From positions 1 to 38,172 of the IMG/VR virus record IMGVR_UViG_3300020045_003149: a stretch of DNA of 38,172 nucleotides; one strand, written 5' to 3'. Positions 1 to 34,027 of the stretch are shown here, in pieces. Each line of letters begins with the position of its first letter. Positions within the stretch are counted from its first letter, which is position 1. The notes below the pieces were generated by a model that was not told the origin of the DNA, made no database searches, and worked only from the letters and a program-made list of their open reading frames with translations. This stretch comes from a virus. Its lineage: Duplodnaviria; Caudoviricetes. Position numbers and translations under genes: made by a program.

Positions 1-121
1 CTTTTCATTTCTCGGGTTTCTTAGATTTATGGGTTTTAGTAGTGTCCTTTGATTCCCGAGCCTTTGATAGTGCTATGGCAACCGATTGCTTCTCTGGACG
101 TCCAGAATGTCGCAGCTCAGA
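1..121. repeat. Terminal direct repeat, left copy (circular assembly overlap)
   Basis: Bases 1-121 are identical to 38052-38172. Confidence 0.95.
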
Positions 122-169
122 TATATTTTCTGAGACAATTTTTTGACTTTTTCCATATTTCAATGGCAT
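5..169 (-). CDS. Small basic phage protein (54 aa), not in the ORF track
   Basis: Translated by hand: MPLKYGKSQKIVSENISELRHSGRPEKQSVAIALSKARESKDTTKTHKSKKPEK. It starts 11 nt after the tail fibre stop and resembles the common small phage MPLKKGKS...AVAIALS proteins. Confidence 0.8.
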   Translation of the reverse strand: MPLKYGKSQKIVSENISELRHSGRPEKQSVAIALSKARESKDTTKTHKSKKPEK

Positions 170-3395: not shown

Positions 3396-5810
3396 TTAAA
3401 CAGGGCGAACGATGAAATATGCGACACTACTCACATCGGCCGTTTGGACCGAAGCAGGTGTGCCAATAATCAAACTATTGATCGTAAAGCTAGCACCGTT
3501 ACTTATGGTGTAACTTAGTACACCTAAAGTTACCGAACCGTTAGATGCTACACGGCTCAAAAAGATCAAGTCTCCCGTAGCTATGTTTGTGTTTAAAATT
3601 GTTGCAGTTCCCAGCACCAAAGTAGCTGTTCCAGCCATGTCAGTCGCTGCGCCAGATTTAATTTGTAGGCCTTTTCCTGTAGTGGCTATCTTTAAGTGTC
3701 CGCCTGTGGCGTTAATGTTCCCAGATCCAGAGTTGATTGTTGTTGTTGATGTTGTGTTTGTTGAGCCTAAGCTAACTGTGTTAGCACCGGCACCTGTTGC
3801 AATGGCTACCGTCTTACCACCAGTTGAGTTGGCTATGTTGATGGTCTGAGCGCCTGTACCACCTGCTACCGTAATCGTGCCCGTATTGGCACCTGTTCCA
3901 CCAAAGTTTATAGTCCCTGATGTAGTGGAAGGTGCAAAAGTATAGGCTGTTGTTGCTGCTCCATCTAAACTGAAGTTGCCAGTTCCTGCTAACAAACTTA
4001 AAGCTGCCGCACCTGAAGCAGAGCCTATTGTAACAATGTTAGCAACTGCACCCGTAGCTATGTTTACAGCTTTAGGGTTAGTCGTACCGCCAGCTATATT
4101 TACAGTGGTAGCCCCCTCTCCTGCACCTATGGCAACGATGTTGGTACCTGAAGAACTACCAAGAGTCATCGTGCCAGTTTGAGCGGTTCCTCCTATAGTG
4201 ATGGTGCCTGTTGTAGTTGCAGCACCAATTGCATAAGTAGAACCTGCAGCACCATTCAAAGAGAAATTACCAGTACCCACTAGCATTGAAAGGCTCGATG
4301 CTCCAGTAACTGAACCAATAGTGATAAGGTTAGCACCAGCACCGTCACCTACGTTGATTGTTTTACCACCTGTAGAATGGCCAATGTTGATGGTTTGTGC
4401 GCCTGTGCCTGGTCCTATTGCAATAATTCCAGTATGAGCACCAGTGCCACCTAATGTGATAGTGCCCGTCGTCATTGCAGTGCCCGCATTGATAGCGCCT
4501 GCTGTTTGAACAACGCCAAGGCTTAAGGTGCCAGCACCTGATCCATTCATGATCTTCACAGCATTAATGCCAGAAGAAGACCCTAAGACTATGTCCCCAG
4601 TTTGAGCAGTTCCACCAACAGTGATCGTACCCGTTGTCGTGGAAGAACCAACGCTGTAAGTAGATGTGGCTGCACCGTCTAAATCAAAGTTACCAGTTCC
4701 TACTCTTAGCTGTAATTTAGAAGCTCCTGTCGTGTTACCAATTTCAATAATCTTGGCAACGTTTCGACCTATCTTGATATCTCCTGTACCCGATTCTATG
4801 GTAACAGCCGTCGCACCTGTCACGTTACCAATAGTAATGACGTGCGCAATGGCGTTTGTGCCGATATCAATGTTTCCAGTTCCTGAATTAAGAGCAAGTG
4901 CTGTAGCACCAGTAGAGTTACCCACTGTTATGGTCCTAGCCGCACTACCTGTACCTATGTTAATAGCTTGAGCATCAGCATCATTACCAATGTTGATAGC
5001 TCCAGCTGATGAGTTTAACTCTAAAACACCATCCGCATCTAAAAGAAGGGTGTCATCAGAGTTGATGATAATGTCGCCTGTACCAGTAGAAGCTAAGTTA
5101 AGAGAACCAGTCCCTGACTGAATAGTGACGGCTGCAGCACCAGTGGTTGAACCTATTGTGATCAAGTTAGCTGAAGCTGAATCACCTATATGAATAGTCC
5201 TAGCTACGGTACCAAGGCCTAGATTAACGTCATCACCTGAGTTATCGGTAGCTAAGTTTAATGCTGTCCCAGCTGTGTCTATGGTAGCGCTAGCATCACC
5301 CGTTATTAGGCCTGTAGCATGTAAAGTAGTGAATGTCCCTGCTGCTGGAGTAGTACCACCTTGGGCAGGAGGATTAGCAAAAACAGCTGCCAAATTAGAA
5401 GGCGTAACAAAAAGAGCGAGTGCTGGAGTTGATGCCGTACCTGCTACAGCTTCTGCATCCGTAGCTAACTGACCAATACCAGCAACCGTTTCAGTGGAAA
5501 CAGGAGCACCAGCAATAGCTAGGTTGTCTGCATATAGTTTTGTGGCTACAGGTTCGCTATTGTCTGTTAGGATTACAGTACCATATGTCGTTGTCGTTGC
5601 TGGCTGAACTCCGCCCGTGTCCCAATCACCACCACCAACCGTTTCATAAATTAAAGCTGGGTTAACAGATTGATCTAACCATCGAGTACCAGGAGGGTAT
5701 ATATCCTGTGAGGTAGGGGCGCGCTGCGCTGTAATGAACTGAGGATAGACATAACCGTCTATCACGTTAGCGAAATTTCCGCCCTGTGAGTTATATAAAG
5801 CTGCCGTCAT
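3396..5810 (-). CDS. Long Gly/Thr-rich repeat fibre or spike protein
   Basis: 804 aa with many TINIG-T-G-type repeats (beta-helix-like). First gene after a putative late promoter. Confidence 0.7.
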   Translation of the reverse strand: MTAALYNSQGGNFANVIDGYVYPQFITAQRAPTSQDIYPPGTRWLDQSVNPALIYETVGGGDWDTGGVQPATTTTYGTVILTDNSEPVATKLYADNLAIAGAPVSTETVAGIGQLATDAEAVAGTASTPALALFVTPSNLAAVFANPPAQGGTTPAAGTFTTLHATGLITGDASATIDTAGTALNLATDNSGDDVNLGLGTVARTIHIGDSASANLITIGSTTGAAAVTIQSGTGSLNLASTGTGDIIINSDDTLLLDADGVLELNSSAGAINIGNDADAQAINIGTGSAARTITVGNSTGATALALNSGTGNIDIGTNAIAHVITIGNVTGATAVTIESGTGDIKIGRNVAKIIEIGNTTGASKLQLRVGTGNFDLDGAATSTYSVGSSTTTGTITVGGTAQTGDIVLGSSSGINAVKIMNGSGAGTLSLGVVQTAGAINAGTAMTTGTITLGGTGAHTGIIAIGPGTGAQTINIGHSTGGKTINVGDGAGANLITIGSVTGASSLSMLVGTGNFSLNGAAGSTYAIGAATTTGTITIGGTAQTGTMTLGSSSGTNIVAIGAGEGATTVNIAGGTTNPKAVNIATGAVANIVTIGSASGAAALSLLAGTGNFSLDGAATTAYTFAPSTTSGTINFGGTGANTGTITVAGGTGAQTINIANSTGGKTVAIATGAGANTVSLGSTNTTSTTTINSGSGNINATGGHLKIATTGKGLQIKSGAATDMAGTATLVLGTATILNTNIATGDLIFLSRVASNGSVTLGVLSYTISNGASFTINSLIIGTPASVQTADVSSVAYFIVRPV

Positions 5811-5844
5811 GATTTTATCACCGATTTAATGTGCACACTATCTC

Positions 5845-5890
5845 GGTTGGCGAAGCCTATACAGCCGTGGAGAGCGACTCCATTCACGCT
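5845..5890 (-). promoter_or_regulatory. Structured RNA leader with two tandem UCGY-loop pseudoknot units
   Basis: Minus strand: AGC-GTGAA-TGGAG-TC-GCT-CTCCA and GGC-TGTATA-GGCT-TC-GCC-AACC. Same unit as in the capsid leader. Confidence 0.65.
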
Positions 5891-5925
5891 AACTATAGAT
5901 TATCAACATTTTTTTTTAATTTCAC
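5886..5925 (-). promoter_or_regulatory. Putative late promoter of the fibre operon
   Basis: GTGAAAT, A-tract, TTGATA-N9-TAGCGT; the same layout lies upstream of the capsid gene. Confidence 0.5.
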
Positions 5926-5926
5926 C

Positions 5927-6616
5927 TTATCTAATTTTTCTATATGTGAATCCAGATGCTTTAATATATTGGTTTAGGGCCGCGCCTAGGCTGGGGTTTT
6001 TCCCCCTCCACCAAGCTCCATATTGATTATGCCCCTCTGTTTTGGCTGCTGCGTTTCCTCTAACGAATGCCCTAAAAATGTTTGCTGGAACACCATTGTA
6101 TTCATAAATTGATCCTCCCTGAAATCTAACCTTCAATCTAGAGGATTTTTGATCATAAGAAACACCCCAAACATTTGAGCTTTGAAGATCAGCATGAGGT
6201 ATCCCATCCAAAACTTGAGGAGGCTGGCCCGATGGCATCAACTGCTCAAGTTGCTCCATTACACGGCTAAGTTCTAATGGATTATTTAAGAGTGCTGTCG
6301 ATGCAGGGCTTCCGAAAGTTCTTAAATATGAGATGAACGCCTGTTCTTGCTGTCCTGAAAGAATCCATAGTAGCTGAGCCTCATCAGAAGGTATTGCCAT
6401 TGTCTGAACTTCAGGAGTAATGACTTCAGGGCGTTCTCTTACCTGAATTTCATTTTGAAGATAATTTATTCTTTCAAGAGATTGATCTATTTCATTAGCA
6501 ATTTCACCCTGTAAGTCATCATCGATTTCTTCACCGGACTGTAATGCGTCTGCCAATCTGTCTAATAGTTCATCAAGAGCAGCATTTATGCGTCTTATCT
6601 CCTCCTCATGGTCCAC
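5927..6616 (-). CDS. KTSC-domain protein with acidic helical N-terminus
   Basis: C-terminus SSNVWGVSYD...LKVRFQGGSIYEYNGVP..IFRAF...S.G...NQYIK matches the KTSC pattern. Confidence 0.8.
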   Translation of the reverse strand: MDHEEEIRRINAALDELLDRLADALQSGEEIDDDLQGEIANEIDQSLERINYLQNEIQVRERPEVITPEVQTMAIPSDEAQLLWILSGQQEQAFISYLRTFGSPASTALLNNPLELSRVMEQLEQLMPSGQPPQVLDGIPHADLQSSNVWGVSYDQKSSRLKVRFQGGSIYEYNGVPANIFRAFVRGNAAAKTEGHNQYGAWWRGKNPSLGAALNQYIKASGFTYRKIR

Positions 6617-12989: not shown

Positions 12990-14429
12990 CTAATACCCAG
13001 CTCCCCAACCAATGCCATAGCCATAGCCGCCTTGAGTTGAGTTAAAGAGTGTGATGTTTGGCTGCTGAATCTCCTCGTTAGCTTGACGCTCCAGTACAAG
13101 GGCTTCTTGACGCATAAAACCTTCTCTAAGATTTTCTACGCCCTCCATGTCTTGACGGTCTCTTAGAATCTCCATAGCAGCACCGTAAGCTATGTACTGA
13201 GACCACTGAGTAAGCACAGGGCTTGAGGTAGTCATTAAGAATTGAGCTGGTGTTTGAAAGCACTCTACCTCGACCAAGTACACGTTATCTGGAACAGGCC
13301 GAATGGTTATCTCGTTATTCCAGAGCAGTAGGTTGTAGGGGCGACCTACCTGATAAGTGGCCGCCCATATATTCAATAAACTGCCTTCTTGTAGAGGGAC
13401 AGGAATAACTAGGCTTATCTCAGTTGTGACATAGTTCACCGTTCCGCAGTATTGTGGGGTGAGTGGACTAGGAGGGTAAGCTTGGTATGCAGAAGGAGGA
13501 GCAGGAGGATCAGACAAAGCATTAACTTGACCGCCAAGAGGAGAAAGATTAGGGATTGCAGGCATTTGTTGGATAAGTGCAGGATCAGAATCCTGTGTTA
13601 AATAAACGTTGTTACCTACTGAATTTTGCTGGATGAATAACAATTTTCCTATAGTGGTGTTAGATCCGATTCCGTGAGAATTAACAACAGCGCCACCATC
13701 ATCAATAATGCGTATAGGATCGCCATTAGTATCTATGCCTCCTATGACAACCTGCGTGCTAAGTATCCCAAAGTTAGGCTGAGGGAAAGGATTCTGGTTA
13801 GAGCCAAAAAGTGTAAAATTAAATGTATTAGTGCTAGTCCACGTGCCACCTGAAACATATGGAGTGAACGCTGTCGAATCCACATCTATGTTTATTGTAT
13901 CATCATTGATAACAGTGACAACGGTGTAGGTGTTTCCATTCAACTCCGTCATCCCGACCACATCTTCAATAGTTATGATCGAACCTACGACTAGTTCATG
14001 TCCTACGCTTGTAATTTTAGTGTAATCGAATACCCCGACAATCACTGGAACTGCGTTGGTGATTGTTCCTGTTAAGGTAGTAGGCCCTTTTTTAAACTGC
14101 GTAGGCGTACGTGGATACAGGTTGAATAGTTGATCTCTGTTCTTAAAAAAGTTACCTTGTACACCTTCAAAATAGATAGGAGATCTCAACGACTGGACAG
14201 TATTAACGTCAACAGGGTACCTGTCAACGTTTGGAATCGTTAAAAACTTATAGACCGATCTTTGTTGGTCGATCTTAATCGCATAAGGAAAGTCTTCCGA
14301 ATAGAATCGATTGACATACTCCTGAATGTCTGCGCTAGACAGAGCAGCCTCACTAGCAGAAGCTGTAAGCCTTCTTACTTTCTTCTCGATGTAAGTGTAC
14401 GTGTTACTTGCTGGTATGACTGCTGGCAT
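12990..14429 (-). CDS. Tail adaptor / tubular protein A with inserted beta domains
   Basis: Helical N-terminus (IEKKVRRLT), ITIRPVPDNVY and YIAYGAA motifs at the C-terminus, and an inserted FCCH-like module. Confidence 0.65.
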   Translation of the reverse strand: MPAVIPASNTYTYIEKKVRRLTASASEAALSSADIQEYVNRFYSEDFPYAIKIDQQRSVYKFLTIPNVDRYPVDVNTVQSLRSPIYFEGVQGNFFKNRDQLFNLYPRTPTQFKKGPTTLTGTITNAVPVIVGVFDYTKITSVGHELVVGSIITIEDVVGMTELNGNTYTVVTVINDDTINIDVDSTAFTPYVSGGTWTSTNTFNFTLFGSNQNPFPQPNFGILSTQVVIGGIDTNGDPIRIIDDGGAVVNSHGIGSNTTIGKLLFIQQNSVGNNVYLTQDSDPALIQQMPAIPNLSPLGGQVNALSDPPAPPSAYQAYPPSPLTPQYCGTVNYVTTEISLVIPVPLQEGSLLNIWAATYQVGRPYNLLLWNNEITIRPVPDNVYLVEVECFQTPAQFLMTTSSPVLTQWSQYIAYGAAMEILRDRQDMEGVENLREGFMRQEALVLERQANEEIQQPNITLFNSTQGGYGYGIGWGAGY

Positions 14430-16357: not shown

Positions 16358-17326
16358 TTATGATGGGTTTGAAGTGGTGACGTTAAGCCCAGAAATCCAG
16401 TTCTGGTTAGTGATAGCCCTGGCTATGGCGAATTTTGCGTAAAGCTGGCTGTTCTGGGCGACTGAAGAAACAACCCATGCAGGGCGATAACCTATAACTG
16501 CTGTGTAGTTGTTTTGTTCTATCTTCGCTGCCGCCTCTAGGCCATACATAGGAATCGTGTAGACCGTATTGCCTCGTAAAGAAATTCCTGGAGTCTTTGC
16601 ACCTTTAGACGAGACAAAGAAACGGAATCGGCTTATTGAGCAGTACTCTTCTGGCCTGATACCTTCTTGGGTTGGGTAAGCAGACTTAAGCAACACACCC
16701 TGCACACGCTGTAAGTCAGCCGATAGGTTAGTGTTAGCCAAAGCTAGGAACGCATCACGAACGCCAGCTGTACCGATGCGGACACTAGCTTCAAGGTCAG
16801 TCAGCATTGAGCGAGCGTCGTTACCAAGAAGAATGTTCTCGATGTTGTTGACGTCGTTCAGGGATATGTTAGAGGGCTGATCGCCGTTAATACCTCCAGT
16901 GGCATTTATATAACTAACTGAGCTAGAGAACAGATCTCTCATTAGTAGATCTTCTTTCTCTCTAAGCCACTGACCTAGAAGTGCAGTAAACTTAGTTAGC
17001 GTTTTGCTGTTCTCATATAAAACAACTTGCTCGTTGACGGCGACGGACTTAGCATAAATTTCCATAGTCGCATCGATATCTGTCCTGACGGGCACTTCTG
17101 ATGCTGGATCGATACCCGAGCCATCAAGTTGACCGCCATCCGTAGACAGACGCTCAAATCGAGACATTCTAGTTGTTTTACCGATGTAGGCTTCCGCGTG
17201 GTGTAAGTCAACCCCGAAGCTGTGAATCAGGTTGAACATTGGAGTGCTGAGTAGGTCTTCAGATGCCTGAACAGGAAGTTCTGGGGCGAAGTTCTGAATG
17301 CCTGTTATACCTGTAGAAAAAGACAT
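16358..17326 (-). CDS. Major capsid protein (N4-gp56-like family)
   Basis: 322 aa after the scaffold; GKTTRMSRFERL, LGQWLREKEDLLMRD and EYCSISRFRF resemble N4-gp56-type capsid proteins. Confidence 0.8.
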   Translation of the reverse strand: MSFSTGITGIQNFAPELPVQASEDLLSTPMFNLIHSFGVDLHHAEAYIGKTTRMSRFERLSTDGGQLDGSGIDPASEVPVRTDIDATMEIYAKSVAVNEQVVLYENSKTLTKFTALLGQWLREKEDLLMRDLFSSSVSYINATGGINGDQPSNISLNDVNNIENILLGNDARSMLTDLEASVRIGTAGVRDAFLALANTNLSADLQRVQGVLLKSAYPTQEGIRPEEYCSISRFRFFVSSKGAKTPGISLRGNTVYTIPMYGLEAAAKIEQNNYTAVIGYRPAWVVSSVAQNSQLYAKFAIARAITNQNWISGLNVTTSNPS

Positions 17327-17356: not shown

Positions 17357-17439
17357 GGTTGACGAAACCGATTCAGTCTACGGAGGCGATACCGCTATAC
17401 AGCCAAAAGATGGGGTAGCGAGGCCCTATTGAAACGCTA
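17357..17439 (-). promoter_or_regulatory. Structured RNA leader of the capsid gene with three tandem UCGY-loop pseudoknot units
   Basis: Minus strand: AGC..GGGCC-TC-GCT-ACCC, GGC..CGGTA-TC-GCC-TCCG, GAC..GGTT-TC-GTC-AACC. Confidence 0.7.
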
Positions 17440-17472
17440 TCATCATACTATCAATTAAAGTTTTTATTTCAC
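17434..17472 (-). promoter_or_regulatory. Putative late promoter of the capsid gene
   Basis: GTGAAATAAAAACTTTAATTGATAGTATGATGATAGCGT; includes a TATGAT -10-like hexamer and matches the fibre operon element. Confidence 0.55.
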
Positions 17473-17482
17473 AACATCCTTA

Positions 17483-18244
17483 TTATGCAATACCCTTGAG
17501 TGATCTTTGCATTCTTTCCCAATTAGCTCTTTTTCTGTCTTCGGTTAGAATAGGTTTTATCTCTTGGGATTGCGTTAGTCCAACGGCAGAAGTTGATTTA
17601 GGCTTAACAAAGTTAGACTCTGCCTTAGCTGCATCCCTCTTTGATGATTGACCACCTGGCACAAAACGTCTTAAGGCATGGTATATGTCAGCCCACTTAT
17701 CGTAACCTTCAGCCTGACGCTTTAAAGGCCTAGCTATTTCAGGGTAGTGGTATTCAAGATAGTCTAGGTTATCCTCATTAACAATCGAATGAAAGTCTGG
17801 ATAAGACTGTGTAAGCCTTTGAGGGTATTCTTGTTGCTCTCTTTGAGCTTGTTGTTGTCTGTTTTGTTCCTCCCTTATAGCCAAGGCAGACTGAACTTTT
17901 CGTTCGATTCGTTGATCTTCTGACTCATCATCGTCAAAACCCCCGTTGAAAGAACTGCTCTCCCTTTGCGGTATCTTACGATCTTCCTTTGCAAAAGCAG
18001 CTTCCATCGCAGCTTTAAGAGCTGCAACCTCTGCTTCTTTCTCAGAAGCTCGTCGCTCGGCAGCTTCTTTCTCAAGTCTATCTCGCTTTCTAGCCTCTCT
18101 AAAGGCTTTCCAGTTGGCATCCGCAGGATCTGTAGAAGTATCTTGTACTTGTTCCGCATTTGAAGGTGTCTGCCCCCCCGTCACTTCCGCCACTTCTGGC
18201 TTTTCAACTTTATTCTGTTCTATGCTGGGATCTTGAACTGTCAT
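17483..18244 (-). CDS. Putative capsid scaffolding protein
   Basis: 253 aa charged coiled coil immediately upstream of the capsid gene; AGGAGG RBS. Confidence 0.7.
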   Translation of the reverse strand: MTVQDPSIEQNKVEKPEVAEVTGGQTPSNAEQVQDTSTDPADANWKAFREARKRDRLEKEAAERRASEKEAEVAALKAAMEAAFAKEDRKIPQRESSSFNGGFDDDESEDQRIERKVQSALAIREEQNRQQQAQREQQEYPQRLTQSYPDFHSIVNEDNLDYLEYHYPEIARPLKRQAEGYDKWADIYHALRRFVPGGQSSKRDAAKAESNFVKPKSTSAVGLTQSQEIKPILTEDRKRANWERMQRSLKGIA

Positions 18245-18255
18245 GAGGACCTCCT

Positions 18256-18573
18256 ATGGATCATATAAAAAATTTAATTGATAATACGCAAGATGTAAAT
18301 GCAAATTTTGAAAAAAACATGGAATTTAGCAAACTAAAGGTTGAAGTGCTAAGTCGTTTTTCTGAATACAGGAAAACAGTGCAATATATGGCTGCCGATC
18401 TGCCAATTAGTGCACTTTGTCTACCCAAGAAGTTGGAAAAGAAGTTGTTAAACGGCGACTTCTTGCGTGTCTTCGAACTTTTTGGCTTGGATCTTGCTAA
18501 AATCGAATTCCTCGACAGCACTGACGTGAGGGATTTGACATCCCGCTTGAATGAGTTCCTCGCGATGCTTTAG
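18256..18573 (+). CDS. RNA polymerase alpha-CTD-like (helix-hairpin-helix) small protein
   Basis: DLPISALCLPKKLEKKLLNGDFLRVFEL...DLAKIEFLD resembles the alpha-CTD pattern PIEELELS.R..N.L...GI.TV.DL...DLLKI..LG; GAGGA RBS. Confidence 0.5.
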   Translation: MDHIKNLIDNTQDVNANFEKNMEFSKLKVEVLSRFSEYRKTVQYMAADLPISALCLPKKLEKKLLNGDFLRVFELFGLDLAKIEFLDSTDVRDLTSRLNEFLAML

Positions 18574-19050: not shown

Positions 19051-19405
19051 TACTCACCACAGATCTATTGTGATTATTAACAGAAGCGCCCCTTATTCCT
19101 AAATGAGAAGCCACATCATGTGTTCGTACACCATACTTTTTTGAAGCTAAGTGGCACGCTAATGGAACTTTCTTTCCATCCTTCACCATCTGGGATGCAA
19201 GAGAAACAGCATTACGCAATTCATCAGACATTTCTGTTTCTTCTTTTTTTTCTAAGTTACCAATCTCAGAATAAACCTGTTCAACAGGACATTTGTAATA
19301 GTTTGCTGAACGATTGCACGCTTGATGAACATCTTTTCCTTCTTGCATCATCTTTTCAGCAAATTTTACTGCTTTAAACATGATAGGGTCTTTAATCCAA
19401 GCCAT
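19043..19405 (-). CDS. Hypothetical protein with two tandem ~45-aa helical repeats
   Basis: AVKFAEKMMQEGKDVHQAC..SA.YY aligns with AVSLASQMVKDGKKVPLAC..ASKKY. Confidence 0.65.
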   Translation of the reverse strand: MAWIKDPIMFKAVKFAEKMMQEGKDVHQACNRSANYYKCPVEQVYSEIGNLEKKEETEMSDELRNAVSLASQMVKDGKKVPLACHLASKKYGVRTHDVASHLGIRGASVNNHNRSVVSNG

Positions 19406-19620
19406 TAATGATCACACTCGTTTGTTTTGGTATGTGGAGTAGGTCTCTCGTTACCTGGCCTAGGAAGGAAAGCCCCCCAGCCACTATTGTCACCTTTAGG
19501 TGTTAGATCTCTGTTTACTTCCCAATGATCCTTTGGCACTGCTGGACCGCTACCATGCTTGATAACATCCGCAGTCGTATTCTTTAGGTAGTCAGGATTG
19601 TGATTAACTTTCTTAGCCAT
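19405..19620 (-). CDS. Small hypothetical protein
   Basis: Probable start is the ATG at 19620 (MAKKVNH...); the stop overlaps the next start. Confidence 0.6.
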   Translation of the reverse strand: MAKKVNHNPDYLKNTTADVIKHGSGPAVPKDHWEVNRDLTPKGDNSGWGAFLPRPGNERPTPHTKTNECDH

Positions 19621-19635
19621 ATAATCTCTCAAAGT

Positions 19636-19763: not shown

Positions 19764-19964
19764 CTAATGCTCAGCTTTGTGCTTCTTGACGTAGTTGGCT
19801 AGTTTGTCAACACTTTCTTTGTACTCAGCAGCTTGATTCATTTCAGACGAGTACTTAAGATCTGCACATTCGACGTCTGCTACGTCTTTCTCCCAATGAC
19901 CTTGCCTAAACTCACCCAGGCCGCCACCTTTAGCATTGCCTTCTTTGTTGTTTTCGTATGCCAT
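19764..19964 (-). CDS. Small hypothetical protein downstream of the portal
   Basis: 66 aa with a GGGG RBS, 8 nt after the portal stop. Confidence 0.65.
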   Translation of the reverse strand: MAYENNKEGNAKGGGLGEFRQGHWEKDVADVECADLKYSSEMNQAAEYKESVDKLANYVKKHKAEH

Positions 19965-32377: not shown

Positions 32378-32950
32378 CTACAAGCCTTGAGCTCTTAAGT
32401 CTGGCATGCCGAAAAGGCTGACGATCACGTTGTCGGCCGAGAAAAGCCTCGATGTGATGCGCTCACCGTAAGTTGCCCTGAAGTCTTGTTTGTTTAGATT
32501 GCTAGTGATCACAGTCTTGCGCTTGTCCTTGTAGCGAAAATCTATGGCCTCCATAAGTATCTCCTCCCTCCAAGCATTGTGACCTGATGAGCCCAAATCG
32601 TCTAGGATGATGAAGTCGTCATCAAGCAGATAGTGCAGGTGAGACATGTAGTCACCTTCTGAATTGCTTATGCCTTGGCGAAGTTTTTCTAGGAGCTTAC
32701 GCTCAGAATAAGCTCTAAAAGATCTTATGCCTAGTGGTATAACCTCTAGCATGGCAGCGCAGATGTAAGTCTTGCCTGTTCCTGGTGGTCCCACTATGAC
32801 GAGGCAGTTTTTTGGCTCGACAGAGAATTTTGCAATTGCTTCCGCAACTCCGCTATCGACATTTGTGACTTTTGAAAAGGTGGCGCCGACGAATCGCTCT
32901 CCGAAGAACCTGCGCTGGAGGTCCTCTGTGTTTGGGTTTCTTTCTGACAT
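32378..32950 (-). CDS. DnaC/IstB-like AAA+ helicase loader
   Basis: GPPGTGKT, IILDDLG, TVITSNL and RITSRL motifs; AGGAG RBS. Confidence 0.9.
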   Translation of the reverse strand: MSERNPNTEDLQRRFFGERFVGATFSKVTNVDSGVAEAIAKFSVEPKNCLVIVGPPGTGKTYICAAMLEVIPLGIRSFRAYSERKLLEKLRQGISNSEGDYMSHLHYLLDDDFIILDDLGSSGHNAWREEILMEAIDFRYKDKRKTVITSNLNKQDFRATYGERITSRLFSADNVIVSLFGMPDLRAQGL

Positions 32951-33771
32951 CTTCTGTCTCCTTGGTGCTGTTGTTTTATGGTTTTAGACTTCTTGAGTCT
33001 GACATAGTTGGTAGCTGTTCCTGAAAAAAAGCGCCACCAGTCGCCGATTGGGCCAGTATAGTCGCAGAGCACTTTCCACGCGTAGCGAATTGCATCGGCG
33101 TGGAAGTCGCATTTGTTGCGAATAATGAGCTCGTAGAGCTGAGTCTGTGTGATCTCCTGCCGCTGGCCTCGATGGTTAGCGATCGAGATCACCTTAGGTA
33201 ACTCACAACCCTCATTTTTCAGGCTTTCCTTTTCTTCATCTTCTTCATTTTCTTCTTCTTGCAAAGGAGCGGCAACTGCCGCGACAACAGACAGTTGTTG
33301 TTTATCCGTCTTGTTTTTTTCCGTATTGGTTTCTTCCGTATTAGTAGTGCCCCCATTATCGGCGTCCCGTTTAACGGCGTCCCGTTTAACGGCGTCCCGA
33401 AAACCGGCGTGCGGTGAACATTTTTTGAATTCAGGTATAGATTCAATTTCTTTCTTTATCTCAGCTATCTCTTCTTTAGAGTCTGAAACAGCCAATTCCC
33501 ACCCTAAGAATGTTCCTCCATCAGCCCTAGGTTGATATCGATAAGCATACCCATTTTCGACGCATTCTTGGATTACGCTGTAGATTGCTTTTTCACCTTC
33601 TTTAAGAACACCGCACATCTGAATGACACTAAACCTCCAATCTGATGGTTTAGTGAGGCAGAAGCCTATGAAACCCTTAGATTTAAGGCTGAGATTTTCA
33701 TCATCAAACATTGAGTTGAGAAGCTGAACGAACTGAAATCGTCTATCTTTAACGCCTCGGATGGTTGTCAT
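32794..33771 (-). CDS. Replication initiator (replisome organiser)
   Basis: N-terminal winged HTH (LSLKSKG...LTKPSDW), internal iterons, directly upstream of the DnaC-like gene. Confidence 0.8.
   Translation of the reverse strand: MTTIRGVKDRRFQFVQLLNSMFDDENLSLKSKGFIGFCLTKPSDWRFSVIQMCGVLKEGEKAIYSVIQECVENGYAYRYQPRADGGTFLGWELAVSDSKEEIAEIKKEIESIPEFKKCSPHAGFRDAVKRDAVKRDADNGGTTNTEETNTEKNKTDKQQLSVVAAVAAPLQEEENEEDEEKESLKNEGCELPKVISIANHRGQRQEITQTQLYELIIRNKCDFHADAIRYAWKVLCDYTGPIGDWWRFFSGTATNYVRLKKSKTIKQQHQGDRRCQKETQTQRTSSAGSSESDSSAPPFQKSQMSIAELRKQLQNSLSSQKTASS
33361..33414. repeat. 15-bp iterons (putative replication origin)
   Basis: GGCGTCCCGTTTAAC twice, then GGCGTCCCGAAAACC and a partial GGCGTGCGG. 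Confidence 0.8.
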
Positions 33772-34027
33772 GTGACTTACCTCCTACACATGTTTCATAT
33801 TTTCCTTTACAAGGAAGCTCTGAAATGTATCCAAAAGATTCAAGTTCGTTTAGAGCTGATTTAATTAGATCTTCTGAGTCGCTTGACATTTCGATAAGAT
33901 CTTGTATGTAGAATAGGTGTCCTTTTGGAAAACCACATACATAAAGACCTATGCCTTTAGCTGTGAATGACAGACTTGAGTTGTCTAAAATGTCTGTGTT
34001 TACTGATCGAATGAAATAAGACTGCAT
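33749..34027 (-). CDS. Stand-alone winged-HTH protein paralogous to the initiator N-terminus
   Basis: LSFTAKG...SALNELESFGY aligns with LSLKSKG...SVIQECVENGY. Confidence 0.75.
   Translation of the reverse strand: MQSYFIRSVNTDILDNSSLSFTAKGIGLYVCGFPKGHLFYIQDLIEMSSDSEDLIKSALNELESFGYISELPCKGKYETCVGGKSHDNHPRR

What the first reader, a model, noticed from the sequence alone, without database searches (positions are those of the whole stretch)
17357..17439. Tandem covarying mini-pseudoknot RNA motif in two late-operon leaders (5 copies)
Seen in sequence: the capsid leader has three units and the fibre-operon leader (5845-5890) has two. Each unit is triplet X, a 5-9 nt linker, a GG-containing stem arm, UC, X', then the CC-containing arm. 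The units are AGC-GTTTCAATA-GGGCC-TC-GCT-ACCC, GGC-TGTATAG-CGGTA-TC-GCC-TCCG, GAC-TGAATC-GGTT-TC-GTC-AACC, AGC-GTGAA-TGGAG-TC-GCT-CTCCA and GGC-TGTATA-GGCT-TC-GCC-AACC. The upstream triplet is always the reverse complement of the loop triplet (AGC:GCT, GGC:GCC, GAC:GTC), so the copies show compensatory change. Both leaders also share GGCTGTATAG. Inference: this is a repeated H-type pseudoknot, probably a protein-binding or small-ligand cis element that sets expression of capsid and fibre genes. I cannot match it to a family I know. A candidate trans factor is the KTSC protein encoded next to the second array.
Basis: partly seen in the sequence, partly recalled or inferred. Interest (0 to 1): 0.85.

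Follow-up and report, generated by a model that had tools for sequence, protein, structure and literature searches.

The report
Pseudoknot arrays gating phage capsid translation
Two unrelated groups of uncultured bacteriophages carry, in front of their capsid and tail-fibre-region genes, short repeated RNA modules predicted to fold as tiny knots, one of which competes with a predicted helix that hides the ribosome-binding site, so the array likely works as an on-switch for making virion proteins when a still unknown partner, likely a protein, binds it.

Summary
Observation confirmed: five units, minus strand. The module is real and widespread. In 121 capsid leaders from two phage groups whose capsids show no BLASTP similarity, 193 of 309 hairpins have the complementary triplet upstream, against at most 72 in swaps.

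The loop and 3' arm of one unit also pair with the Shine-Dalgarno region, and this rival helix is leader-specific in both groups. It costs 10.3 and 7.6 kcal/mol to open at the window's two sites. Unit 1 starts at the predicted transcription start.

KTSC is rejected as the general partner: 22 of 23 records in one group, 0 of 22 in the other. No shared candidate phage gene was found. Best reading (0.5): a protein-opened translational ON switch; small-molecule riboswitch 0.2.

Against: one distant clade has units without the rival helix, and nothing was tested at the bench. No Rfam match. An anonymous Fremin 2023 candidate may overlap it; those alignments were unreadable. This scan noted similar arrays on two other genomes.

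The parts
17445..17474 (-). sigma-70-like promoter (-35 at 17474-17469, -10 at 17450-17445); predicted +1 at 17438, the first base of unit 1
   Evidence: same register in relatives (6 nt in 36 of 59 parsed leaders, 6-8 nt in 51 of 59; 12 of 71 not parsed); the simple consensus scanner did not list it
17413..17438 (-). unit 1 (AGC:GCT), at the predicted 5' end; outside the OFF helix
17381..17404 (-). unit 2 (GGC:GCC), the switch unit: its loop and 3' arm are the anti-SD strand
17357..17378 (-). unit 3 (GAC:GTC), nested in the loop of the OFF helix; its first two bases also join that helix
17377..17387 (-). 5' strand of the predicted OFF (SD-hiding) helix
17330..17340 (-). 3' strand of the OFF helix, containing the Shine-Dalgarno GAGG (17334-17331)
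   Evidence: predicted unpaired probability 0.0, opening cost 10.3 kcal/mol
16358..17326 (-). major capsid protein, N4-gp56 family (regulated gene, inferred)
17483..18244 (-). 253-aa ORF in scaffold position upstream of the leader (label from position only)
   Evidence: present in 11 of 11 group-1 genomes; no family match over cut-off
5897..5925 (-). second promoter-like site (extended -10 at 5902-5897); predicted +1 at 5890
   Evidence: by register; relatives show the same layout; the scanner listed a different, overlapping -10
5868..5890 (-). unit 4 (AGC:GCT), at the predicted 5' end
5845..5866 (-). unit 5 (GGC:GCC), switch unit of the second leader; its 3' arm overlaps the anti-SD strand 5847-5843
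5819..5824 (-). SD side of the second OFF helix (SD-like GGTG 5822-5819)
   Evidence: opening cost 7.6 kcal/mol
3396..5810 (-). 804-aa ORF heading the tail-fibre/spike region (regulated gene, inferred; fibre label weak)
5927..6616 (-). KTSC-domain gene upstream of the second leader: context only, rejected as the general partner

Best explanation
The arrays are conserved mRNA-leader elements made of 2-5 small units predicted to fold as pseudoknots, and they likely act as a translational ON switch that an RNA-binding protein would open. Shown from sequence: each unit has two interleaved, covarying helices. In most leaders the loop and 3' arm of one unit are also complementary to the Shine-Dalgarno region, so that unit and the SD-hiding helix cannot both form. 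Inferred: the SD-hiding helix is the resting state. A protein that binds the repeated units gains avidity on the flanking copies, holds the switch unit folded and frees the SD, so that capsid and fibre-region proteins are made in bulk only when it is available. The partner is not identified. A conserved host factor (ribosomal protein S1 on the 30S subunit is the named candidate, about 0.3) is somewhat more likely than a diverged phage late protein (about 0.2), because the two phage groups share the RNA but no detectable candidate gene.
For: Unit covariation: 193 of 309 hairpins against swap mean 55.5, maximum 72 of 300. At least eight triplet pair types occur, and the fourth pair has a G:C to C:G variant in 8 first units, probably one clade. 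OFF helix: cognate mean -16.2 against permuted -12.2+-0.3 (62 leaders) and -18.3 against -13.75+-0.4 (41 leaders), no permutation of 200 reaching the observed value. It overlaps a parsed unit in 41 of 48 and 31 of 41 leaders, and its part outside the SD changes on both sides in many forms. Median SD opening cost is 8.8 (n=60) and 6.7 (n=41) kcal/mol against 2.8 for 16 other window genes, more than a small ligand easily pays at equilibrium (inference). Flanking units have no expression platform of their own, which suits multivalent binding (inference). Few unpaired bases are conserved: U of UC, with an optional bulge and a variable linker of 2-13 nt. All convincing arrays lie before virion genes or an HNH gene inserted there. 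Precedents: pseudoknot plus S1 for tisB (PMC7708055, passages), pseudoknot-driven SD release in timP (PMC13000454, abstract), Mu Com activation (PMC6483171, abstract and passages).
Against: No experiment and no partner. A distant N4-gp56 clade (4 of 6 loci inspected) has three clean units but no strong anti-SD helix from a unit, with a best duplex of about -8 kcal/mol, so switching is not universal. In 7 of 48 and 10 of 41 leaders the best SD partner did not overlap a parsed unit. Folded alone, units 2 and 3 give a plain hairpin that extends the triplet helix, so the two helices might alternate. Permutation controls do not remove relatedness between leaders. Profile searches found no shared candidate gene, which counts against a phage activator. 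S1 binds diverse pseudoknots (PMC7708055), which does not explain the conserved GGC/GAC and UC identity. The direction of control (ON) is inferred from folding energies only.
Confidence: 0.5

Rival explanations
1. A new small-molecule riboswitch class used by phages: each unit is a minimal aptamer, and ligand binding to the switch unit frees the SD, tying virion production to a metabolite or signal.
For: Aptamer plus anti-SD layout. Unit size is like the smallest known pseudoknot aptamers (recalled). The U is near-invariant and a pyrimidine is often bulged. No shared phage protein was found.
Against: Few conserved unpaired bases, with bulge optional and linker variable. Flanking copies have no platform. 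Opening cost is 7-10 kcal/mol. No array was seen before a host metabolic gene in 61 of 74 metagenome loci classified or in 151 genomes, though that model search was insensitive.
Confidence: 0.2
2. A ligand-free kinetic switch: the units fold first during transcription and keep the SD open for a short time, then the more stable OFF helix takes over, limiting translation to fresh transcripts.
For: Units precede the SD and are local. In nested folding of growing transcripts the OFF helix appears only at about 108 nt, once the SD is made. timP is described as switching by structure alone (PMC13000454 abstract; PMC11295053 part 1 of 2).
Against: It does not explain flanking units, the conserved sequence identity across unrelated phages, or arrays without an OFF helix.
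Confidence: 0.12
3. The units mainly stabilise the mRNA: the first triplet is the transcript's 5' end and is tucked into a loop, shielding it from 5'-end-dependent decay; further copies are road-blocks.
For: Unit 1 starts at predicted +1 at both window sites and 6-8 nt after the -10 in 51 of 59 parsed leaders. Arrays persist without an OFF helix.
Against: It does not account for the leader-specific SD helix. The 5'-most pair is often mismatched in unit 1. Many group-2 arrays follow the upstream stop codon directly, with no evident promoter (by eye).
Confidence: 0.1
4. Feedback repression: a protein such as unassembled capsid binds the array or the OFF form and shuts translation down, as T4 gp32 does from its pseudoknot.
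For: Phage precedent (PMC3014915, passages); arrays sit at structural genes.
Against: Stabilising the switch unit would expose, not hide, the SD. The two groups' capsids show no BLASTP similarity, and the same units precede fibre-region genes.
Confidence: 0.05

Closest known systems
E. coli tisB +42 mRNA 5' pseudoknot / S1 standby site (PMC7708055, passages read)
   Same: Small H-type pseudoknot near the 5' end of a leader whose RBS is sequestered; proposed to promote translation.
   Different: tisB has one pseudoknot (stems 9 and 5 nt) separate from the sequestering stem, plus a single-stranded standby region and an antitoxin RNA. Here 2-5 repeated units occur, one is itself the anti-SD strand, and the genes are phage virion genes.
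Salmonella timP structural switch (PMC13000454 abstract; PMC11295053 commentary, part 1 of 2)
   Same: Pseudoknot formation in a 5' UTR is linked to release of a sequestered SD.
   Different: A single pseudoknot plus a separate long-range pairing, controlled by the sRNA TimR. No repeated module and no phage context.
Phage T4/T2/RB69 gene 32 operator (PMC3014915, passages read)
   Same: Phage mRNA-leader pseudoknot that nucleates protein binding.
   Different: One pseudoknot, an unstructured A+U-rich tract over the RBS, repression by the gene's own product. Here tandem units, a structured RBS and predicted activation.
Phage Mu Com / mom translational activation (PMC6483171, abstract and passages read)
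   Same: Phage translational activation by a protein binding near an inhibitory structure.
   Different: A hairpin motif read by a zinc-finger protein encoded beside its target. No such shared gene was found here.
Small pseudoknot riboswitches (fluoride/crcB, preQ1-I, guanidine-III; features recalled)
   Same: Size, pseudoknot fold and SD control. The fluoride aptamer also pairs a 5' GGCG with a UCGCC stretch (recalled).
   Different: No Rfam match. The third loop is 0-2 nt instead of a long conserved strand, the units are tandem, and the downstream genes are capsids.
Fremin et al. 2023 anonymous candidates DNAVirus_3698, _5613, _865 (PMC10690425, supplementary tables searched)
   Same: Listed within 25 bp upstream of capsid_maj_N4 (37 and 4 cases) or capsid_maj_Podo (52 cases) genes, the two capsid families found here.
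   Different: Sequences and structures could not be read, so identity is open. The main-text passages name no tandem unit and mention a pseudoknot only for gene 32.

Membership tests
H-type pseudoknot (structural class) | two interleaved helices, each supported by compensatory change | tested here: met
   unselected hairpins against swaps; 56 selected segments, 15 of 17 pairs change on both sides; descriptive only, since segments were chosen for complementarity
H-type pseudoknot (structural class) | both helices form at the same time | not testable with these tools
   nested folding cannot model it; units 2 and 3 alone give an alternative hairpin
Any Rfam 15 family (incl. crcB, preQ1, ykkC-III, GP20, Mu-gpT-DE; names recalled) | covariance-model score at or above gathering threshold | tested here: not met
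   0 in window; best E 1.5 in the capsid leader; 0 in 20 related loci
Translational riboswitch (class of mechanism) | structured element mutually exclusive with an SD-sequestering helix | tested here: met
   absent in one clade
Translational riboswitch (class of mechanism) | direct, selective small-molecule binding | not testable with these tools
   needs in-line probing
Translational riboswitch (class of mechanism) | association with genes for a ligand's metabolism or transport | tested here: not met
   only virion-gene or inserted-HNH contexts found; pattern- and model-limited
T4 gene 32-type operator | single pseudoknot upstream of an unstructured RBS region, before an ssDNA-binding protein gene | tested here: not met
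   tandem units, sequestered SD, capsid gene; definition from PMC3014915
tisB-type standby site | pseudoknot at the 5' end and sequestered RBS | tested here: met
   predicted only:
tisB-type standby site | pseudoknot separate from the sequestering stem | tested here: not met
   true for unit 1, false for the switch unit
tisB-type standby site | S1/30S binding depends on the pseudoknot | not testable with these tools
   needs toeprint or binding assay
Mu Com-type activator system | phage-encoded RNA-binding activator that co-occurs with the element | tested here: inconclusive
   KTSC 22 of 23 against 0 of 22; no shared small core family in 11 against 7 genomes or 45 profile pairs; highly diverged proteins would be missed
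Fremin 2023 candidates DNAVirus_3698/5613/865 | same sequences | not testable with these tools
   alignment archives unreadable

The most novel reading that the evidence does not exclude
A phage-specific riboswitch class built from tandem ~25-nt pseudoknot aptamers, shared by unrelated podovirus-like groups, that senses a host metabolite or defence signal and licenses capsid and fibre synthesis directly at the mRNA.
Probability: 0.2. Interest if true: 0.93.

Novelty: new variant of a known kind. Interest (0 to 1): 0.76.

Why it matters
Late-gene control in tailed phages is usually described at transcription (own knowledge). Here an RNA module absent from Rfam is kept in front of capsid genes from two families with no pairwise similarity, and again before fibre-region genes, with a built-in helix over the ribosome-binding site. 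That points to a shared post-transcriptional checkpoint for virion production. In group 1 it would explain how a host-type promoter directly before the capsid gene stays harmless until needed. The unit is tiny, has many natural compensatory variants, and can be tested at once in reporters. Its partner would be either a new riboswitch ligand, a new phage activator, or a sequence-defined natural S1/30S recruiting element, and pseudoknots that activate initiation are described as rare (PMC11295053).

Tried and rejected
KTSC as general partner: rejected; a search with it found only 3 close loci.

Shared phage activator: BLASTP and profile searches between 11 group-1 and 7 group-2 genomes share only terminase, YqaJ/RecE exonuclease, DnaB, HTH repressor, HNH, ParB/methylase and single small hits. 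Best hhalign probability was 4.8 in 45 pairs; the larger run timed out.

Host: unresolved. Seven MAG contigs from unrelated taxa hold the capsid, 1 of 203 scored genomes of the order around one of them matched (3 not scored), and the Atlas lists viruses only. Group-2 arrays occur in 2 Gammaproteobacteria-class genomes; 12 of 15 capsid loci inspected there show no array.

Cultured model phage: none found. The window capsid has one 27% hit. Mx9, Mae-Yong1326-1, RHph_N65, StenR_269, vB_Pun_Y3 and Pascal show short gaps or no clear array. A blastn with a group-2 leader gave 4 chance-level hits, one inspected.

Chromosomal contexts: a two-unit model gave 10 hits in 8 of 151 genomes, all inside long open frames. 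It scored 38 candidates per genome and missed a known leader in G353, so the blank is weak. Pattern scans: 120, 61, 119 viral and 74 metagenome loci, mostly chance; 13 of the 74 were not classified by my script.

RNA reads: no RNA holder listed. Terminator or antiterminator role: no terminator-like site on the minus strand at either leader. Ribozyme, ANTAR, T-loop and fluoride-aptamer likenesses were considered from memory and dropped for layout and lack of Rfam hits.

Full report
Setting. The window is a complete IMG/VR phage record with direct terminal repeats. It has a repressor, RecT/RecE, replication genes, terminase, portal and a podovirus-like structural block on the minus strand. The gene at 16358-17326 is an N4-gp56 family major capsid protein. 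The host could not be assigned.

The observation. The five units are in the sequence as described, on the minus strand. A descriptor written after seeing them finds one two-unit array in the window and none in 100 shuffles. Rfam gives nothing for the window, for the capsid leader at relaxed threshold, or for 20 related loci.

Spread. A capsid search found 292 relatives and kept 80 loci at 87-94% identity; these give 70 distinct leaders, called group 1. A pattern scan turned up L167, a GC-rich phage with the same units between a scaffold-position gene and a capsid of another family, NF033394. That capsid shows no BLASTP similarity to the window's. Its 55 relatives, group 2, mostly carry two to four units. 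Further scans added a clade at 30% capsid identity and arrays in two Gammaproteobacteria-class genomes, one with about five units. Twelve of 15 capsid loci inspected there lack an array, so it is patchy. In 17 whole records plus the window, arrays lie at the capsid leader and, in group 1, at the leader of the ~800-aa gene, apart from one chance-looking case. That second site is present in 8 of 11 group-1 genomes, absent at that position in one and not found in two. Group 2 also has a second site in three loci, before a 112-aa ORF upstream of a gene that resembles a group-2 core protein near the tail genes (likeness by eye).

The unit. The consensus is triplet, optional bulged base, G, a linker, a 4-7 bp stem, a loop with UC and the complementary triplet, and 0-2 bases before the stem closes. 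To test covariation without selecting for it, I defined hairpins only by stem and UC. Of 309 such hairpins in the last 170 nt of 121 leaders (71 group 1, 50 group 2), 193 have the exact complement plus G upstream; swapping loop triplets gives mean 55.5 and maximum 72 in 300 swaps. Pair types include GAC:GTC 72, GGC:GCC 59, AGC:GCT 23, GAT:ATC 8, GGT:ACC 5, CGC:GCG 4, and CAC:GTG in L568. Fourteen group-1 and 7 group-2 leaders had no strictly parsed unit in that stretch. Anchoring the first unit on the promoter alone, pairs 2 and 3 and the fourth pair beat 2000 permutations, but the 5'-most pair does not (40 of 71 parsed). On 56 two-unit segments (55 of the 74 listed, plus the window), 15 of 17 pairs change on both sides; these were chosen for complementarity, so the count is descriptive. 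Whether both helices form together is inferred. Nested folding of units 2 and 3 alone gives an alternative hairpin.

The switch. The loop and 3' arm of one unit pair with the SD and the bases just before it. I tested 103 of the 121 leaders. Dropped were 10 that did not end in a start codon, 5 with an HNH gene inserted, 1 too short, 1 with a misplaced start and 1 with no array. Cognate duplexes average -16.2 kcal/mol against -12.2+-0.3 permuted in group 1 and -18.3 against -13.75+-0.4 in group 2, with no permutation of 200 reaching the observed mean. The partner overlaps a parsed unit in 41 of 48 and 31 of 41 leaders. Relatedness is not removed by this control, but the helix outside the SD takes many different complementary forms in both groups. 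In the window, 17387-17377 pairs with 17340-17330, removing unit 2 and the start of unit 3. Opening the SD costs 10.3 kcal/mol there and 7.6 at the second site, against a median of 2.8 for 16 other window genes. Against universality, the distant N4-gp56 clade has three clean units and no such helix (4 of 6 loci read).

Promoter. In 59 of 71 group-1 leaders a TTG...TANNNT pattern precedes the array, and the first triplet follows the -10 by 6 nt in 36 and by 6-8 nt in 51. The units are therefore predicted to start at +1. The simple scanner did not list the capsid-leader site, and no RNA run was listed.

Partner. KTSC is in 22 of 23 group-1 and 0 of 22 group-2 records. No candidate RNA-binding gene is shared. 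No convincing array lay before a host metabolic gene, though those searches were narrow.

Mechanism. Shown: repeated units, two covarying helices, a leader-specific SD helix that overlaps one unit, and virion-gene context. Inferred: knot formation, OFF as resting state, ON direction, and a protein partner. I commit to a protein-opened ON switch (0.5), with a host factor such as S1 (0.3) ahead of a diverged phage protein (0.2). Rivals are a small-molecule riboswitch (0.2), a kinetic switch (0.12), 5'-end protection (0.1) and feedback repression (0.05).

Known systems and novelty. It works most like tisB and timP leaders and Mu mom, and is a member of none (see Closest known systems and Membership tests). 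Ten full-text searches listed no paper describing tandem pseudoknots in capsid leaders; I saw most hits only as listings, and subscription journals are largely missing. Papers opened: PMC10690425 (passages, supplementary tables 3-5 searched by term, alignment archives unreadable), PMC7708055, PMC3014915 and PMC6483171 (passages), PMC13000454 (abstract), PMC11295053 (part 1 of 2), and PMC5737381 (listing only; supplement unreadable). Fremin 2023 lists three anonymous candidates upstream of the same two capsid families, so the leader may already be catalogued without this reading; unseen supplements bear on novelty. This scan holds two unreviewed notes of similar arrays on other genomes. I had noted the anti-SD helix before reading them, and they are not independent evidence.

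Verdict. Real, more widespread and better organised than first described. A new RNA family of a known broad kind, partner unknown; interest 0.76.

Noticed in passing
window 18256-18573 (+): A 105-aa ORF facing away from the scaffold-position gene is conserved in 11 of 11 group-1 genomes. By eye it resembles an RNA polymerase alpha C-terminal or helix-hairpin-helix domain (recalled); Pfam gave nothing over cut-off and PDB gave no match. Possible late regulator.
   Followed up: partly
L213, L224, L227, L232, L233 (group-2 capsid leaders): An HNH endonuclease-like ORF is inserted between the array's SD and the capsid start, so it takes over the gated ribosome-binding site and often begins with TTG or GTG.
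   Followed up: partly
L004, L009, L015, L029, L030, L034, L048, L072 capsid leaders: A short leader type with two units: the first swaps the fourth pair to C:G, and the second uses an A-rich 5-6 bp knot helix that is itself the anti-SD.
   Followed up: partly
group-2 units, e.g. L227 and L233 leaders: Stem plus 7-nt loop beginning UUCG looks like a tRNA T-arm (recalled likeness). Possible origin or mimicry; not tested.
   Followed up: no
window 32794-34027 (-): Two adjacent ORFs (92 aa and 325 aa) match the same replication-initiator N-terminal PHROGs, suggesting a duplicated winged-helix start.
   Followed up: no
window 12990-14429 (-): A 479-aa structural-region protein carries a ubiquitin-activating E1 FCCH-like domain above Pfam cut-off; a weak hit to the same family appears in a group-2 protein.
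   Followed up: no
window 5-169 (-), 19405-19632 (-), 19764-19964 (-): Small conserved ORFs of no known family (9, 11 and 11 of 11 group-1 genomes); the first is strongly basic.
   Followed up: partly
L085:10001-11259: A capsid match spans 1259 bases for 322 residues, implying an insertion of about 290 bases inside the capsid gene.
   Followed up: no
group-1 promoters, window 17451-17468 (-): The spacer often begins with a conserved ATTAAA-like stretch after the -35, possibly a site for a late transcription factor (by eye).
   Followed up: no
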